IMG/VR virus record: IMGVR_UViG_2734482778_000014
Coordinates: 1-13,254 of that record
Source: a virus
Lineage: Duplodnaviria > Heunggongvirae > Uroviricota > Caudoviricetes
Length of the DNA stretch: 13,254 bases
Direction: 5' to 3' (one strand)
The notes beneath the pieces are model-generated. The model did not search any database, was not told the origin of the DNA, and was given only the letters and a program-made list of their open reading frames with translations. The position numbers and the translations under genes were made by a program. Every line of letters starts with the position of its first letter. Position 1 is the first letter of the stretch. Shown one piece after another: positions 2,860 through 8,565 of the stretch.

Positions 2860-2901
2860 TAGCACAGAGTAAAGCCTAATCTGACAGTCCGCTCTGTGCT
2901 A
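2860..2901. repeat. perfect 10-bp inverted repeat (tagcacagag ... ctctgtgcta) separated by 22 bp
   Basis: Read directly: 2860-2869 is the exact reverse complement of 2892-2901. Lies in the intergenic region between gene G and the convergent ABC ATPase gene, at the left boundary of the AT-rich cassette. Confidence 0.6.
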
Positions 2902-2959
2902 GGTGCAGACATAGCTTAGAGCAGCTTGTGTAAATCTGCAGGGACGAGCTTAAAGAAGC

Positions 2960-2986
2960 GCCGCCTTCATAGAAGGCAGCATTTTA
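2960..2986. terminator. candidate bidirectional intrinsic terminator between convergent genes
   Basis: Stem gccgccttc (2960-2968) / gaaggcagc (2972-2980), 9 bp with one C-A mismatch and a 3-nt loop, followed by ATTTT on the plus strand and by CTTCTTT on the minus strand; 4 nt from the ABC ATPase stop codon (2984-2986). Confidence 0.45.
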
Positions 2987-5344
2987 CATTTGTCTACTAT
3001 CAATACCTGAACGTGCTGCTTCCATGAAGTTGATCCTTCCTGCTGGCATACCAAATTTTTTGTATTTATAACGAAAATAGGCCGACATACGGTCTTCATG
3101 CGTTGATATAATTATCTGACGATCTCGGAATTCAGTTCGTAGTAACTCGACAAAGCCAGCTACATTAATTTCGTCCAGTGTCTGAACAGGATCATCTACG
3201 AGCAATAGAGAGTGCTTGGCGTACCGCTGATTCAAGGCAAGAGTAAATGATAGTACCAATGCTGAAAGCTGGCCCGAACTCATGGAAAAGACGGCATCAT
3301 GCTCATGCCCTGGTGTTTCATTGAAGGCGATAGAATTACCATCATTTTCTATGAAGATACCCAGCCCCTGCTGATAACTTTGCATAAGGCGACCTGAATA
3401 GATATGAAATAGAATCTCAATCTCTTTAACTATAGATTCGAGATACGATCTTTTCTCACTCTCATAAATTCTTTTGATTTTCTGTAGATGACCTTTCAGT
3501 TTATCGGCCTTTCTAATTAATATTTCAGCTTTATTATACTCCAACTCACATTCCGAGATGTATTTAGATAAAGCAATGGATTGTTGCTGCCCTAAATAAG
3601 TTTTTTTCAATTCAAGTCTTGAGGGGGTGATATATTTAACCGAGAGGGGGTCGTTATTAAACACTTCACGAAAAACTCTCTCAAAATCATCATGGATACA
3701 GCTGTCGTCAACTGGTTTAAATATTTCACGAACGCGACGCTCGAGTTCATCTATCGCGAGTTGTGTTACAGGTTCAAAATTATCGCACAGTAAGTCCTGA
3801 AATATAACCCCCCCAGCTAGTAGTTGTTTATAATAATTTTCTAACCACAGGATTTGTTCTTCTGATAAACTTGTTAGTTGGCGCTTACGCTCAATACTTT
3901 CTTTCTCTTGCACCAGATATGTCTGCAGTACAATTTCAATGGGCTCCTGCCAGTTGCGTCTGAAATTGGCTAGTGCTTGTGAGAATTGATCATTCTGTTG
4001 CTCGGCTAAATTTTCTAGAATTATACGTTGGTTTTCAATTCCTCCAAGCAGAGCATCAGCCGTTGGCCAAGGATGTCCACACGTAGGGCAAATATTTGTC
4101 AAATCGCAGTGAGATTCATGCTTCCTGAAAGCACTTACCATTTGCTCGCGTGTTTGTAGCAGCGCCGCATAGCATTCCTGAACTTTATCTGAATTAGCTA
4201 ACTGCAATTTGAGCCCGGCTACCTGTTGATGAAACTCCTCCGGCGATAGGGTTTCCGGGAGGAGAGTGACCAGTGGAGCAGTGATCACCAAACGATCTTC
4301 ATTGATAGCCTTTATTGTATCTTTAAATGCGTCACTTAGTGCTAAGGCTGATTCAAAACAAGCAACGTCATCCTGCCATTTGTTCCTTTGTTCAATAGAT
4401 TGATAATACATCAAAAACCGCTGTTGTAGCTCCTGTTTAGGGAGGAGTTTCTTTATCAATTCATTATTATATAGCTGATTTTCATATTGTTCGAAATTTT
4501 CAGTAAAACGTCGGACTCGGAATAACTCTCCATCTGCAGATAACCACTGTTCGAATTGCTGTGCATCAACCTCCACAACATCACGATCCCATGGTTGATC
4601 TGTAATTGCGATAATCCTTTCATATGCAACAGAACTATCTGCTGGTAGCATCTGCTGCTTAGCTAGGTCCCATTTATCTTTAAGTTGTTTCATTTCGGCA
4701 TATTTCTGTGGATTACACAATTTACCGATTTTGGTTGATGCCAAGTTAATATTACTAATTTTGTCCTGAATGTCTCCAATATCGAACAGATGTGCAATCT
4801 GGCTCTGTCTATCTTTTTCCTTTTGTTTTAGCAACCGAGTGTTTTCTTCTTGCTCAACATAATGAAACAATTCAAAATCACGTTGATACTGATCTCCTAG
4901 TAAGGCAGAAAGGTATGATTCTTCTTGCGAAATAGCTTCACCTCGCTCCGCGTTGAAATCGGCTAATTCATAAAGAGGAAGCCTTAAATCAGCTACGCCT
5001 TTATGTTCATCTAGAACTGCTTTGCTGGCTGCTCTCTCGAGAAAACAACTACTCCCATCAACTAAGATCTCGGCACGGATTGAAAGCCAATCATCATTTC
5101 TCGCTTGTTTGAATAACCAAGGACAGCCAGTTTTCAAGCTTCGTCGATCTATTGTAAGTTTTTCGAGTTCAATATAGCGCCGGATTTTTCCTGTCAGTAG
5201 CAGTTCTAGTGCATCAAAAAAAGATGATTTACCGAAACCATTGGGACCATCAAGAACAATGAGATATTCACTTTCAAGAGTTAACTCTAGTTTCTCAAAG
5301 ACTTTAAAATTACGTACTTCTAGGCGTTTAACAATCAATTTCAT
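2984..5344 (-). CDS. SMC/Rad50-like ABC ATPase with long coiled-coil insert (LmuB / DdmC-like, ABC-three-component family)
   Basis: Preferred start ATG 5344-5342 (MKLIVKRLEVRNFKVF..., preceded by GAGG); the track ORF begins at an upstream GTG at 5368. Walker A GPNGFGKS at nt 5225-5248; about 650 residues rich in Q/E/K/L heptad-like sequence; CPTC (CxxC) at nt 4079-4090 near the protein midpoint; C-terminal signature-like SSGQ (3269-3280), Walker B LLLVDD (3191-3208) and H-loop STHED (His codon 3098-3100). Stop TAA 2984-2986. Confidence 0.85.
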   Translation of the reverse strand: MKLIVKRLEVRNFKVFEKLELTLESEYLIVLDGPNGFGKSSFFDALELLLTGKIRRYIELEKLTIDRRSLKTGCPWLFKQARNDDWLSIRAEILVDGSSCFLERAASKAVLDEHKGVADLRLPLYELADFNAERGEAISQEESYLSALLGDQYQRDFELFHYVEQEENTRLLKQKEKDRQSQIAHLFDIGDIQDKISNINLASTKIGKLCNPQKYAEMKQLKDKWDLAKQQMLPADSSVAYERIIAITDQPWDRDVVEVDAQQFEQWLSADGELFRVRRFTENFEQYENQLYNNELIKKLLPKQELQQRFLMYYQSIEQRNKWQDDVACFESALALSDAFKDTIKAINEDRLVITAPLVTLLPETLSPEEFHQQVAGLKLQLANSDKVQECYAALLQTREQMVSAFRKHESHCDLTNICPTCGHPWPTADALLGGIENQRIILENLAEQQNDQFSQALANFRRNWQEPIEIVLQTYLVQEKESIERKRQLTSLSEEQILWLENYYKQLLAGGVIFQDLLCDNFEPVTQLAIDELERRVREIFKPVDDSCIHDDFERVFREVFNNDPLSVKYITPSRLELKKTYLGQQQSIALSKYISECELEYNKAEILIRKADKLKGHLQKIKRIYESEKRSYLESIVKEIEILFHIYSGRLMQSYQQGLGIFIENDGNSIAFNETPGHEHDAVFSMSSGQLSALVLSFTLALNQRYAKHSLLLVDDPVQTLDEINVAGFVELLRTEFRDRQIIISTHEDRMSAYFRYKYKKFGMPAGRINFMEAARSGIDSRQM

Positions 5345-6032
5345 AACCTGCCTCAGATAATTTATCACCCATGGAAATTAATAGATCTTCCGGTAATACA
5401 TCCTGTGATACAATCTGAGCAGCTAAAGAATCAATAACTGAGTCGAATGTAGTTAATAGAGCAGGGTTATCCGTGCGCTGAATTTTTTCATTAATACTTC
5501 GTTCAAGGCTAGCTAAATCAGAATTACCAAAGCTATTAACTGCTATAAAAGGCAGTTTTATCACAAGTCTGTATAGTAGGCTTTGCCATCCACCTTGTAG
5601 GTAATGAGATTTATATTCGGTAAAGGTATCAGGAGAAGTAATCAATTCGCGAAAGACTGCTGCGAGTCCTTGGGTATCAACCTGCTGGTATAAAGCTTCA
5701 AGCTCTGCGGTAGTATATGGAAGTACGTGTTTCTTGAAGAAATAACTATCTTCTTCCGCATGATGAACTCTTTTACTACAAAGCACACTTGAGCTGTCAG
5801 TGTTCCATACAATCAATAAATTAATGTTTTTCTCAAGTGCGGGATCGGATGTGGCTTTTTTACATTCATTCAACCACCCAGCTTGGATTTCAGGTGTAAT
5901 TATCGGCTCACCAAAGACTACTAACCAGAAATTTTTCTTACCCAGTGTACTGTATTCGTATAACGCCAAGTCTGTGGAATGTTTACGCGTCAGTCCTTCT
6001 GATTCCAACAATTGCTCAATTAGGTTCTGCAT
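5328..6032 (-). CDS. hypothetical protein, 234 aa; candidate middle component of an ABC-three-component / Lamassu-like system (LmuC / DdmB position)
   Basis: ATG 6032-6030; stop TAA 5328-5330; no motif I can recognise. Sandwiched between the putative effector and the ABC ATPase with 17-nt overlaps on both sides, indicating a co-translated operon. Family assignment is by position only. Confidence 0.5.
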   Translation of the reverse strand: MQNLIEQLLESEGLTRKHSTDLALYEYSTLGKKNFWLVVFGEPIITPEIQAGWLNECKKATSDPALEKNINLLIVWNTDSSSVLCSKRVHHAEEDSYFFKKHVLPYTTAELEALYQQVDTQGLAAVFRELITSPDTFTEYKSHYLQGGWQSLLYRLVIKLPFIAVNSFGNSDLASLERSINEKIQRTDNPALLTTFDSVIDSLAAQIVSQDVLPEDLLISMGDKLSEAGYEIDC

Positions 6033-7332
6033 CTTTCAAACTCTCAGGTACATTGTTTAAAGAAACCATAGCCACCTTCTTATAATTCCCGATGCGGTTT
6101 TCCCTTAGTAATTCGTGTTCAATGGTATCCACTCCCTCAGTGGCGTCGATACCTACGAGTACGTCAGAGATTGAAGGTCTGTCTATGGCGCTGGTGATAA
6201 GTACACCGCCCTCAAATAAACATTCTACATCTTCGCTAATTGCCTGTTGCATGATGTCATGACAGATACTTTCCTGATGCTCTACAGCATGGTGGATACC
6301 TGTTGGATAATAGAAAAGCCCATCATTTAGCCAAGAGAATGCAACACCAGAAACTTCATTTCGTGCAGCCTGAACTAGTTTCCAGAAAATTGTAAACATC
6401 CCAAGTCGCATTGCATCACGATCAAGTGATTGTTCCTTAAATTCATCAAGAGTTCTAAAACGTCCCTTTTTATGCGGCATCGTTGCTCTCAGGAATGACT
6501 TCATTCCATCAACATCCAACGCAGTGATAGCAGCCAGATAGTCATCTAACTTTTGACATGCTGCTTGGGAGAAGCCGTCTTGGCGATCACAAAACTCTTG
6601 GTAGTATGTGCCAATATCAATCTGCAGGCGGCTAAGGAAGAACGCTTCATTCTCAAACGGAGTATAATCGTTTGCTTCGATTACACCATACAACTCAGAA
6701 AACTCGATGAATTCGCCAGCTGCGATTGCCGTCTGATGACGCACAGACTCGTGTATCCGACTATGGGTCATAATGACTTTTGAATTTACTATGGCTTCAA
6801 GCGTGTTCTGAATATTTGCAACGAGATGAATCTTCCAGGCGGGTAGTACTGCGATATTAGAAAGTAGGCTGGTAAGTTTATTCCTAATCAATCTGTCCAC
6901 CTCACTCAGTGGGCAAAAGGATTGTGTGGCATTTCCTTCTACATCAGGTGGAATAGGGTAAGCATAAAATCTCACTGGTCCATAGTCAGCCTCAAATGTT
7001 GCCGGAACGTTCATTACTTCGCGAGCCACATGGAAATAAGCGAGCTGCACACCTCGCTCCCTCGCACTATCCCGTTGGGTAGTGATGCCATCTCTGTAGG
7101 CGGAAAAGCGCGTGTCTTTGTACGCTTTGACCTGATGCATTGACAGGCATTGCTGGTGACGAAAAATTGCGAAATCATCCTGGCTTTCTAGCTGCAGTTT
7201 CAAATCTCGGTTCGCTTCATAATCTGAGGACATCATCTTCAAACAGTGGTACAGCGCCAGCTTGCCCTGATAGACAAATCCACTCCACGTAGAGATGGCT
7301 GTGTGTGGAAAAACTTGAGGAACAACTGCCAT
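6016..7332 (-). CDS. putative nuclease effector with N-terminal PD-(D/E)xK-like motifs (Cap4/DUF4297-like; LmuA / DdmA position)
   Basis: Preferred start ATG 7332-7330 (MAVVPQVF..., upstream AAGGGA); the track ORF begins at GTG 7347. N-terminal region contains GFVYQ (nt 7267-7281), then LQLESQDDFAIF and MHQVK: Asp codons at 7174-7179 and Q-x-K at 7126-7134, a spacing and context consistent with a restriction-endonuclease-like D...(E/Q)xK core. The C-terminal ~300 aa has no recognisable motif. Stop TGA 6016-6018. Confidence 0.5.
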   Translation of the reverse strand: MAVVPQVFPHTAISTWSGFVYQGKLALYHCLKMMSSDYEANRDLKLQLESQDDFAIFRHQQCLSMHQVKAYKDTRFSAYRDGITTQRDSARERGVQLAYFHVAREVMNVPATFEADYGPVRFYAYPIPPDVEGNATQSFCPLSEVDRLIRNKLTSLLSNIAVLPAWKIHLVANIQNTLEAIVNSKVIMTHSRIHESVRHQTAIAAGEFIEFSELYGVIEANDYTPFENEAFFLSRLQIDIGTYYQEFCDRQDGFSQAACQKLDDYLAAITALDVDGMKSFLRATMPHKKGRFRTLDEFKEQSLDRDAMRLGMFTIFWKLVQAARNEVSGVAFSWLNDGLFYYPTGIHHAVEHQESICHDIMQQAISEDVECLFEGGVLITSAIDRPSISDVLVGIDATEGVDTIEHELLRENRIGNYKKVAMVSLNNVPESLKDAEPN

Positions 7333-7415
7333 GAGATCCCTTATCACTTTAGATTCACATCATTGGGACATTCTCAGCACGGAGACTCTTCCCATCCTCT
7401 AACGATATATAGCCT

Positions 7416-7444
7416 ATTGACATATAAAATACTCTTAGTATTTT
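7416..7444 (+). promoter_or_regulatory. candidate sigma70 promoter: TTGACA (7416-7421), 17-bp spacer, TATTTT (7439-7444)
   Basis: Perfect -35 hexamer and acceptable -10 with correct spacing in the AT-rich region between the cassette and FI; predicted transcription start near 7451, reading toward the terminator at 7781-7809. Confidence 0.35.
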
Positions 7445-7780
7445 CGTGGATATTGTTCTATCCCCTAGATTTACATGCTTGTTGCTTATCATATCCTTAC
7501 ACTGAATCTTCGTTGGTTTGGTCAGCATCTCTAACCAGTCCCTCACGGAGAATTACTGCAACAATACAATTGTCATAAAACCTTCCGCTTAGAAGGGAAA
7601 ATGTCAACTCAACAAAGTGGTTGGCCCACTATTGATTAATAAACAATACTAGTAATGCTTCCATCGGCTGTAAGAAAAATTGAGGACTTCCGCTCCTCGC
7701 TCAAAGCAGGCTATCAGACTTGATAGCGTTTTGGCTATGTAAATTGTCAGTTGGAAAATGAGTGAGTACAAATCAGGACA

Positions 7781-7809
7781 GGCGGGCGAATTGCCCGCCT
7801 TTTCTTTAT
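7781..7809 (+). terminator. rho-independent terminator (GGCGGGC gaatt GCCCGCC then TTTTCTTTAT)
   Basis: Perfect 7-bp GC stem with 5-nt loop followed by a T-rich tract on the plus strand; no annotated plus-strand ORF of meaningful size ends upstream of it. Confidence 0.7.
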
Positions 7810-7903
7810 CTGTTGTTTCATCCACTGACCAGCCAGGTCAAATAGCGTCTCATGCACTGTCCAACAGAAAATAGTTGCACCCATTAACCACGGAGTTAAA
7901 CGG

Positions 7904-8565
7904 ATGAGTGACTATCATCATGGCGTGCAGGTGCTGGAGATTAACGACGGCACCCGCGTCATTTCCACCGTATCCACCGCCATTGTTGGCATGGTCTGCA
8001 CGGCCAGCGATGCGGATGCGGAAACCTTCCCCCTCAATAAACCGGTGCTGATTACCAATGTGCAGAGCGCAATTGCAAAGGCCGGTAAAAAAGGCACGCT
8101 GGCGGCGTCGTTGCAGGCCATCGCTGACCAGTCAAAACCAGTCACCGTTGTCGTGCGTGTTGAAGACGGCACCGGCGACGACGAGGAAACGAAACTCGCG
8201 CAGACCGTTTCCAATATCATCGGCACCACTGACGAAAACGGTCAGTACACCGGACTGAAAGCCCTGATGACACGATGGCTGAGGCGCACATGTGGGCTAT
8301 TGATAAGCCCATCACCGCAACGCTGATTCGCGACATCGTTGACGGCATCAATGCCAAATTCCGTGAACTGAAAAGCAACGGTTATATCGTGGATGGCACA
8401 TGCTGGTTCAGTGAAGAAGCCAATGATGCGGAAACCCTCAAGGCCGGAAAACTGTATATCGACTACGACTATACCCCGGTGCCTCCTCTCGAAAACCTGA
8501 CCCTGCGCCAGCGTATTACTTCAAGATACCTGGCAAGTCTGGTCACCTCGGTTAACAGCAATTAA
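7904..8565 (+). pseudogene. FI: tail sheath protein gene FI, disrupted: frame break and apparent internal deletion of about 0.5 kb
   Basis: ATG 7904 with GGAG SD. The N-terminal ~121 codons ([54 protein letters not shown]...TGLKAL) match the P2 sheath N-terminus as recalled. At about 8265-8270 the frame changes, and the sheath C-terminus ([35 protein letters not shown]...LVTSVNSN) continues in another frame to stop 8563-8565. Total coding capacity is about 220 codons, against the roughly 390-400 aa expected for a P2-type sheath. Confidence 0.8.

What the first reader, a model, noticed from the sequence alone, without database searches (positions are those of the whole stretch)
5328..6032. Identical 17-nt gene overlaps link the three cassette genes; middle protein is sequence-orphan
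Effector stop to middle-gene start overlap is ATGCAGAACCTAATTGA (6016-6032) and middle-gene stop to ATPase start overlap is ATGAAATTGATTGTTAA (5328-5344). Both are exactly 17 nt, each placing the downstream ATG inside the upstream gene's last six codons. This indicates tight translational coupling and fixed stoichiometry, and it supports ATG 5344 rather than the upstream GTG 5368 as the ATPase start. The 234-aa middle protein has no motif I recognise and is the least characterised part.
Basis: seen in the sequence. Interest (0 to 1): 0.5.

Follow-up and report, generated by a model that had tools for sequence, protein, structure and literature searches.

The report
Overlapping genes in a known Lamassu operon
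The two 17-base gene overlaps are real and inherited, but they join the three genes of a known anti-phage system (Lamassu) carried by a P2-like prophage, and the "orphan" middle protein is its recognised LmuC subunit, so the finding is largely ordinary.

Summary
Both overlaps are exactly as described: 6016-6032 and 5328-5344 on the minus strand, 17 nt each. The cassette is a lmuA-lmuC-lmuB Lamassu (ABC-3C) operon of the long, Rad50/Mre11-like subtype. It has a Cap4-like nuclease with CTD1, an MC1 middle component, and a 786-aa SMC-like ATPase with one CxxC hook and Walker B LLLVDD. It sits in a variable cargo slot of a P2-like E. coli prophage.

The middle protein is not an orphan. It passes Pfam PF20289 (MComp1), NCBI names it, about 740 cluster representatives match it, and its dN/dS is 0.07-0.2.

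In 22 related loci both junctions overlap almost always (1-20 nt; one 1-nt gap). Most of the gammaproteobacterial relatives show 17/17. Other lineages show 8, 4, 11 or 20, and the two junctions vary independently. The equal lengths are therefore coincidence, while the overlap itself is conserved.

ATG 5344 is well supported as the lmuB start, and ATG 7332, not GTG 7347, is the likely lmuA start. Translational coupling is plausible but untested. Solved short Lamassu complexes are A1:C1:B2, not equimolar. The system is already known and interest is low.

The parts
2897..7685 (.). Variable cargo segment in a P2-like prophage, lying between the tail-fibre assembly gene and the tail-sheath gene. 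GC is about 0.40, against about 0.55 in the phage backbone.
   Evidence: Homology to the prophage in E. coli S22EC ends at window 2896 and resumes at 7686; that prophage carries a Shedu nuclease in this slot. GC profile. Flanking Pfam hits: Caudo_TAP, Gp18/sheath, Phage_tube.
6016..7332 (-). lmuA: Cap4-like nuclease N-terminal domain plus CTD1. It is 438 aa from ATG 7332; the ORF extends to GTG 7347.
   Evidence: PF20276 CTD1 at 93.1 bits. Cap4_nuclease at 25.7 bits, just under its 26.2 cutoff. PADLOC LmuA 8.9e-18. SD AAGGGA (7342-7337) gives -5.3 kcal/mol for ATG 7332, against -0.3 for GTG 7347. Gene callers give 438 aa.
6016..6032 (-). 17-nt lmuA/lmuC overlap, ATGCAGAACCTAATTGA. The lmuA stop TGA is formed from lmuC codons Ile5-Glu6 (ATT GAG).
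   Evidence: The same 17 nt is kept in WIN, L001-L003 and L006-L011. L004 has 8 nt. More distant loci have 8, 4, 20, or a 1-nt gap.
5328..6032 (-). lmuC: MC1-type middle component, 234 aa.
   Evidence: PF20289 at 40.2 bits, above the 27.3 cutoff. 49+ homologues, all PF20289. 740 representatives. dN/dS 0.07-0.20. AF2 model pLDDT 86.
5328..5344 (-). 17-nt lmuC/lmuB overlap, ATGAAATTGATTGTTAA. The lmuC stop TAA is formed from lmuB codons Val5-Lys6 (GTT AAA).
   Evidence: 17 nt in WIN, L001-L003, L005-L010 and L013/14/17; 11, 8, 4, 20 or 1 nt elsewhere.
5347..5354 (-). Shine-Dalgarno sequence of lmuB (GAGGCAGG), encoded by the lmuC codons for Glu-Ala-Gly.
   Evidence: Duplex energy with the anti-SD is -9.0 kcal/mol, against a cassette background of -2.3 +/- 2.5. 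It is strong in most related loci.
2984..5344 (-). lmuB: SMC/Rad50-like ABC ATPase, 786 aa. Walker A GPNGFGKS (5225-5248), zinc hook CPTC (4079-4090), signature SSGQ, Walker B LLLVDD (3191-3208).
   Evidence: PADLOC LmuB 1.1e-61. Pfam SMC_N and AAA_23. Motif positions. PDB sequence hits only to Rad50/SMC heads.
2959..2981 (-). Terminator-like hairpin directly after the lmuB stop, marking the likely end of the operon.

Best explanation
The region is the middle of a three-gene Lamassu (ABC-3C) anti-phage operon, lmuA-lmuC-lmuB. It belongs to the long, Rad50/Mre11-like subtype: Cap4-like nuclease with CTD1, an MC1 middle component, and a roughly 800-aa LmuB with a single zinc hook. It is carried as cargo in a P2-like E. 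coli prophage. Those points are shown here.

By analogy with solved short Lamassu complexes, an LmuB dimer together with LmuC would hold a monomeric LmuA inactive. Sensing of foreign DNA ends would then release LmuA, which oligomerises into an active nuclease. This mechanism is inferred, not shown.

The two overlaps are ordinary 3n+2 ('phase 1') overlaps. Each upstream gene simply reads on to the first out-of-frame stop inside the conserved N-terminal codons of the next gene (ATT GAG gives TGA; GTT AAA gives TAA). What is conserved across the family is close abutment or overlap, which places each start site inside the preceding gene. This is consistent with coupled, co-localised translation of subunits of one complex. 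The exact length of 17 nt, and its equality at the two junctions, is incidental.

lmuC has only a weak SD and probably depends most on ribosomes arriving from lmuA. lmuB has a strong SD of its own, which could supply the extra LmuB needed for a 1:1:2 complex. Both points are inference.
For: Identity of the system: together with the subtype criteria in PMC12663957 and bioRxiv 10.1101/2025.03.14.643221.

Prophage cargo slot.

Overlap survey of 22 loci. Junction alignments.

Start sites and SD strength.

The junction RNA is no more structured than shuffled controls (z = +1.8 and +1.2), so no masking hairpin is needed or seen.

Purifying selection on lmuC.

Overlapping pairs are enriched for subunits of heteromeric complexes, and long overlaps favour the 3n+2 phase: PMC10666635. 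A neutral origin for such overlaps by 3' elongation: PMC3887535.

Stoichiometry A1:B2:C1 in short Lamassu: PMC12663957.
Against: There are no expression, ribosome-profiling or protein data for this locus, so coupling is inferred only from anatomy.

Seventeen nt lies outside the -8 to +10 nt range that Huber et al. took as predictive of termination-reinitiation.

The strong lmuB SD and the open RNA would also allow fully independent initiation.

The mechanism and stoichiometry come from short Lamassu systems whose LmuC and LmuA CTD show no detectable sequence similarity to these proteins. None of the papers read here reports a solved long-type structure.
Confidence: 0.8

Rival explanations
1. 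One reading: the two identical 17-nt overlaps are a designed, length-specific device that fixes the stoichiometry of three proteins, and the middle protein is an uncharacterised orphan.
For: Both overlaps are exactly 17 nt. 17/17 is kept across E. coli, Edaphovirga, Enterovibrio, Vibrio, Shewanella and Oceanisphaera.
Against: The two junctions vary independently: 17/11, 4/17, 8/11, 8/4 and 8/8 all occur. A close relative has 8 nt through a single point mutation. The known complexes are 1:1:2, not equimolar. The middle protein belongs to Pfam PF20289, that is MC1-type LmuC.
Confidence: 0.07
2. The overlaps are neutral by-products of stop-codon drift. Each gene is initiated independently at its own ribosome-binding site, and there is no functional coupling.
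For: Long 3n+2 overlaps can be explained without selection (PMC3887535). lmuB has a strong SD. The junction RNA is unstructured. Overlap length drifts within the family.
Against: No spacer longer than 1 nt appears at either junction in 22 loci reaching down to 24% identity. The lmuC SD is at background level in the window's clade. The region from -25 to +8 around the lmuC ATG is nearly invariant, including synonymous sites, from E. coli to Vibrio.
Confidence: 0.2
3. The annotated starts are wrong. The true starts lie downstream (for example TTG 5338 for lmuB, or the TTG codons just after the lmuA stop for lmuC), so the real overlaps are shorter or absent.
For: Alternative in-frame TTG codons exist 6 nt downstream of ATG 5344, and 4-7 nt past the lmuA stop.
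Against: The ATG is invariant at both sites across the family, whereas the TTGs are not. Met1 of LmuC is an invariant alignment column, and the N-terminal residues are conserved. The LmuB profile alignment begins at residue 1.
Confidence: 0.04

Closest known systems
Long ('Rad50/Mre11-like') Lamassu: LmuA-CTD1..5 / LmuC-MC1 / LmuB of about 800 aa (Haudiquet et al. PNAS 2025, PMC12663957; Li et al. bioRxiv 10.1101/2025.03.14.643221)
   Same: All the listed hallmarks are present: gene order A-C-B, CTD1, MC1, a 786-aa LmuB, a single CxxC, Walker B hhhhDD, and a Cap4-type effector.
   Different: Nothing essential differs. This copy sits in a P2-like prophage cargo slot. In the papers read here this subtype has little experimental work and no solved structure.
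Short Lamassu Vc-Cap4 (DdmABC) and Salmonella LmuACB, solved by cryo-EM
   Same: A three-gene A-C-B operon with a Cap4 nuclease effector, an SMC-like sensor and a middle component. The mechanism proposed here is borrowed from these systems.
   Different: Their LmuB is about 600 aa, and the V. cholerae one has no zinc hook. Walker B is hhhhD[QSTE]. Their LmuC and LmuA CTD belong to other families, and no PDB chain matches the window's LmuC or LmuA by sequence.
SbcCD / Mre11-Rad50
   Same: A Rad50-like ATPase with a zinc hook, preceded by its partner gene. E. coli sbcD and sbcC also overlap, by 4 nt. The literature proposes that long LmuC derives from the SbcD/Mre11 C-terminal region.
Translationally coupled overlapping gene pairs that encode heteromeric complexes (Huber et al. 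2019 and 2023)
   Same: Co-directional overlap between genes for subunits of one complex, with the downstream start site inside the upstream gene.
   Different: 17 nt is longer than the usual 4, 1 or 8 nt and lies outside the -8 to +10 nt range taken as predictive of reinitiation.

Membership tests
Lamassu / ABC-3C | LmuB: an SMC/Rad50-like ABC ATPase with Walker A, signature and Walker B motifs separated by a coiled-coil insert | tested here: met
   PADLOC LmuB 1.1e-61 over the full length. Pfam SMC_N at 67.8 bits. GPNGFGKS at residue 33, SSGQ at 689, LLLVDD at 713.
Lamassu / ABC-3C | LmuA: an N-terminal effector domain plus a family-specific C-terminal domain | tested here: met
   PF20276 CTD1 at 93.1 bits and PADLOC LmuA 8.9e-18. 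The Cap4_nuclease domain scores 25.7 bits, marginally below its 26.2 cutoff, so the effector assignment is probable rather than certain.
Lamassu / ABC-3C | A middle component (LmuC) encoded between lmuA and lmuB | tested here: met
   PF20289 MComp1 at 40.2 bits, above the 27.3 cutoff. The order A-C-B on one strand holds in all 22 related loci. No PADLOC LmuC model matched.
Lamassu / ABC-3C | Protects against phage or plasmid | not testable with these tools
   Only context is available: a prophage cargo slot that holds a Shedu nuclease in a related prophage, and in others DUF5677-domain or MFS-transporter/hydrolase genes of unknown role.
Long (Rad50/Mre11-like) Lamassu subtype | LmuB of about 800 aa, a single CxxC, Walker B hhhhDD, MC1 LmuC, and CTD1-5 LmuA | tested here: met
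   786 aa, one CPTC at residue 419, LLLVDD, MC1 and CTD1. Criteria taken.
Long (Rad50/Mre11-like) Lamassu subtype | LmuC structurally like the Mre11/SbcD capping domain plus Rad50-binding region | tested here: inconclusive
   [not shown]
Termination-reinitiation coupled gene pair | Translation of the downstream gene depends on translation of the upstream gene | not testable with these tools
   Anatomy only: conserved overlap, a weak lmuC SD, and no masking hairpin.

The most novel reading that the evidence does not exclude
Two readings are not excluded.

(a) The junctions encode the subunit ratio. lmuC, which has a background-level SD and a nearly invariant 30-nt start region, would be made only by ribosomes reinitiating from lmuA, giving 1:1. 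lmuB would add de novo initiation at its strong SD, giving the second LmuB copy.

(b) The N-terminal domain of MC1-type LmuC would be a degenerate restriction-endonuclease-fold module rather than an Mre11 capping domain. That would change the proposed SbcD origin of long Lamassu.
Probability: 0.2. Interest if true: 0.4.

Novelty: already known. Interest (0 to 1): 0.15.

Why it matters
It matters little beyond correct annotation. The checks fix the start codons (lmuB ATG 5344, lmuA ATG 7332) and identify the cassette as a long-type Lamassu with a Cap4-like effector in a P2-like prophage cargo slot. They also show that the overlap, not its length, is the conserved trait.

The long subtype is the less studied branch of Lamassu and, in the papers read here, has no solved structure. 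This abundant E. coli copy is listed in 281 index blocks of the assembly collection. It would be a convenient model for testing stoichiometry, coupling and the fold of MC1 LmuC.

Tried and rejected
1. A hairpin masking the downstream start sites (coupling by unmasking). Both junctions fold less stably than shuffled controls, so this was rejected.

2. Sequence identity between the two overlaps, or a shared motif. Only 8 of 17 positions match, and no repeat family covers them.

3. Known RNA families. No Rfam hit anywhere in the window.

4. PDB sequence relatives of LmuC, by single sequence and by profile, and of LmuA. None found.

5. Profile comparison of LmuC with E. coli SbcD, and with the window's own LmuA. 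No similarity in either.

6. Foldseek against PDB and BFVD. Essentially nothing significant. The afdb50 library was unavailable.

7. A catalytic PD-(D/E)xK motif in LmuC. The canonical positions are not conserved: D21 is variable and there is no ExK on the third strand. An active second nuclease is therefore not supported.

8. An internal promoter for lmuC or lmuB. Promoter-like hits are fewer than in shuffled sequence.

9. The original ABC-3C classification paper (Krishnan et al. 2020) could not be retrieved. MC1 and CTD1 definitions are taken from Pfam and.

10. Phage database. There is no near match to the cassette.
Full report
**Observation**

On the minus strand the ORF 6016-7347 ends with TGA at 6018-6016. 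The next ORF starts with ATG at 6032-6030, so the two share ATGCAGAACCTAATTGA. That ORF ends with TAA at 5330-5328, and the third has an ATG at 5344-5342, so they share ATGAAATTGATTGTTAA. The sequences themselves match at only 8 of 17 positions.

**What the genes are**

- The 443/438-aa protein has Pfam CTD1 of ABC-3C systems (93 bits), a near-threshold Cap4 nuclease domain (25.7 bits against a 26.2 cutoff), and a PADLOC LmuA hit.
- The 234-aa middle protein passes Pfam PF20289, 'ABC-3C middle component 1' (40.2 bits against 27.3).
- The 786-aa protein is a full-length PADLOC LmuB (1e-61). It has Walker A GPNGFGKS, signature SSGQ, Walker B LLLVDD and one CxxC (CPTC).

This is a Lamassu operon, lmuA-lmuC-lmuB. 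LmuB length of about 800 aa, a single zinc hook, an hhhhDD Walker B, MC1 and CTD1 are the marks of the 'long', Rad50/Mre11-like subtype. These criteria come from Haudiquet et al. (PMC12663957) and Li et al. (bioRxiv 10.1101/2025.03.14.643221).

The middle protein is therefore not an orphan. The identical sequence is listed in 281 index blocks of the public assembly collection. NCBI names homologues 'ABC-three component system middle component 1'. A profile search finds 740 cluster representatives at E<=1e-3. Pairwise dN/dS of 0.07-0.20 shows it is a protein under purifying selection.

**Context**

The flanking genes are P2-type tail genes: fibre, fibre-assembly, sheath, tube, tape measure and gpU. 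The cassette is low in GC, about 0.40 against about 0.55 in the backbone.

Homology to related E. coli P2-like prophages stops at 2896 and resumes at 7686. In the same slot strain S22EC carries a Shedu nuclease, and other strains carry different cargo. From my own knowledge this corresponds to the Z/fun position of P2. The hotspot studied by Rousset et al. (PMC9122126) is the other one, between gpA and gpQ.

An 80%-identical cassette sits in a different island, next to ssrA, in E. coli PapM-32-1.

**Are the overlaps meaningful?**

I located both junctions in 22 genome loci with LmuC identity from 92% to 24%. Starts were assigned by conservation of the N-termini.

- lmuA/lmuC junction: 17 nt in E. 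coli, Edaphovirga, Enterovibrio, Vibrio, Shewanella, Oceanisphaera and Alcanivorax. It is 8 nt in Rahnella and in several distant lineages, 4 nt in Pseudomonas and Pedobacter, 20 nt once, and a 1-nt gap once.
- lmuC/lmuB junction: 17 nt in the enteric and vibrio clade and in Pseudomonas; 11, 8, 4, 20 or 1 nt elsewhere.

Close abutment or overlap is therefore a family trait. The length drifts, and it drifts independently at the two junctions. Only 2 of 11 lineages have equal lengths.

The lengths are set by where the upstream frame meets its first stop inside the conserved N-terminal codons of the next gene. Ile-Glu (ATT GAG) gives TGA, and Val-Lys (GTT AAA) gives TAA. A single G-to-T change in Rahnella creates an earlier TAA and shortens the overlap from 17 to 8 nt.

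All the lengths seen are 4 or 1 nt, or belong to the 3n+2 phase. That phase is the commoner one among long overlaps and has been explained by 3' elongation after stop loss (PMC10666635; PMC3887535).

**Start codons**

ATG 5344 is preceded by GAGGCAGG (-9.0 kcal/mol with the anti-SD), while GTG 5368 has -0.9. In many homologues an in-frame stop lies between the two positions, and three loci have only the ATG.

By the same criteria lmuA starts at ATG 7332 (SD -5.3) rather than at GTG 7347 (-0.3). Gene callers agree, giving 438 aa.

**Coupling and stoichiometry**

The RNA around both junctions folds less stably than shuffled controls (z = +1.8 and +1.2), so there is no evidence for a masking hairpin.

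The lmuC SD is at background level (-2.7 against a mean of -2.3). Yet the 30 nt around its ATG are nearly invariant from E. coli to Vibrio, including synonymous sites. This fits dependence on ribosomes coming from lmuA.

lmuB carries a strong SD in most loci. Solved short Lamassu complexes are LmuA1:LmuB2:LmuC1, so 'fixed stoichiometry' cannot mean equimolar output. Extra SD-driven initiation at lmuB would fit a 1:1:2 ratio, but that is my inference.

Huber et al. tested termination-reinitiation only at increasing positive distances and took -8 to +10 nt as predictive of it; 17 nt lies outside that range. From my own knowledge, post-termination ribosomes can reach nearby upstream starts (Adhin and van Duin 1990). 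Nothing has been measured for this locus.

**The middle protein's fold**

An AF2 model built on 33 sequences has pLDDT 86. It shows an N-terminal alpha/beta domain (about residues 1-106) and a C-terminal helical domain.

The canonical catalytic positions are not conserved. The invariant residues are K68, N69, E93, E94, D95, K100, K101, K141, R155 and K159, which may form protein or DNA contacts.

The literature proposes an Mre11/SbcD C-terminal origin on the basis of weak structural matches. My data neither confirm nor exclude this.

**Verdict**

One is plausible but untested (coupling). One is wrong (orphan middle protein).

Noticed in passing
window 7904-8565, breakpoint at about 8269: The tail-sheath gene (gpFI) has an internal deletion of about 529 bp and a frameshift, leaving two ORFs of 140 and 96 aa in place of 396 aa. 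Identity to the E. coli assembly locus L026 steps from 99.9% left of 8269 to 97.4% right of it. This points to a recombinant or decayed prophage, or possibly a misassembly.
   Followed up: partly
L027-L030 (E. coli assemblies carrying the identical LmuC): Several copies are P2-like prophage remnants next to yegR/yegS that have lost the tape measure, gpU, baseplate or most of the fibre gene. The Lamassu cassette is intact in all of them, so the defence cargo outlives the phage.
   Followed up: no
L005 4144-4905 (Vibrionales bacterium SWAT-3): An IS4/IS5-family transposase is inserted about 12 nt upstream of the lmuC ATG. It cuts off the 3' end of lmuA and separates the two genes by about 800 nt, a natural uncoupling or inactivation.
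   Followed up: partly
L002 6377-7080 (E. coli A26; also A3): lmuC is split into two ORFs annotated as hypothetical proteins, while lmuA and lmuB stay intact. This is probably a recently inactivated system.
   Followed up: no
window 6033-6060: The roughly 25 nt upstream of the lmuC ATG (AATGTACCTGAGAG..AAAG) are almost invariant from E. coli to Vibrio, including third codon positions of lmuA, even though the SD match is only weak.
   Followed up: partly
window 7333-7903: A leader of about 570 nt lies between the sheath start and lmuA, and gene callers find no gene in it. It contains a strong bidirectional terminator-like hairpin (7780-7800), further hairpins (7581-7596, 7682-7698) and a 63-aa ORF (7355-7546, minus strand). 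The promoter of the operon was not located.
   Followed up: no
window 7332-7347: The ORF list starts lmuA at GTG 7347. ATG 7332 has the SD (AAGGGA), and PGAP and other gene callers choose it, giving 438 aa.
   Followed up: yes
[not shown]
   Followed up: partly
window 5800-6060, plus strand: An 86-aa GTG ORF lies antisense to lmuC and spans the lmuA/lmuC junction. Nothing supports it as a gene. Purifying selection in the minus-strand frame explains the conservation of the region.
   Followed up: partly
L032 4751-4754 (E. coli K-12 sbcD/sbcC): The proposed ancestral pair, sbcD-sbcC, also overlaps, by 4 nt.
   Followed up: no
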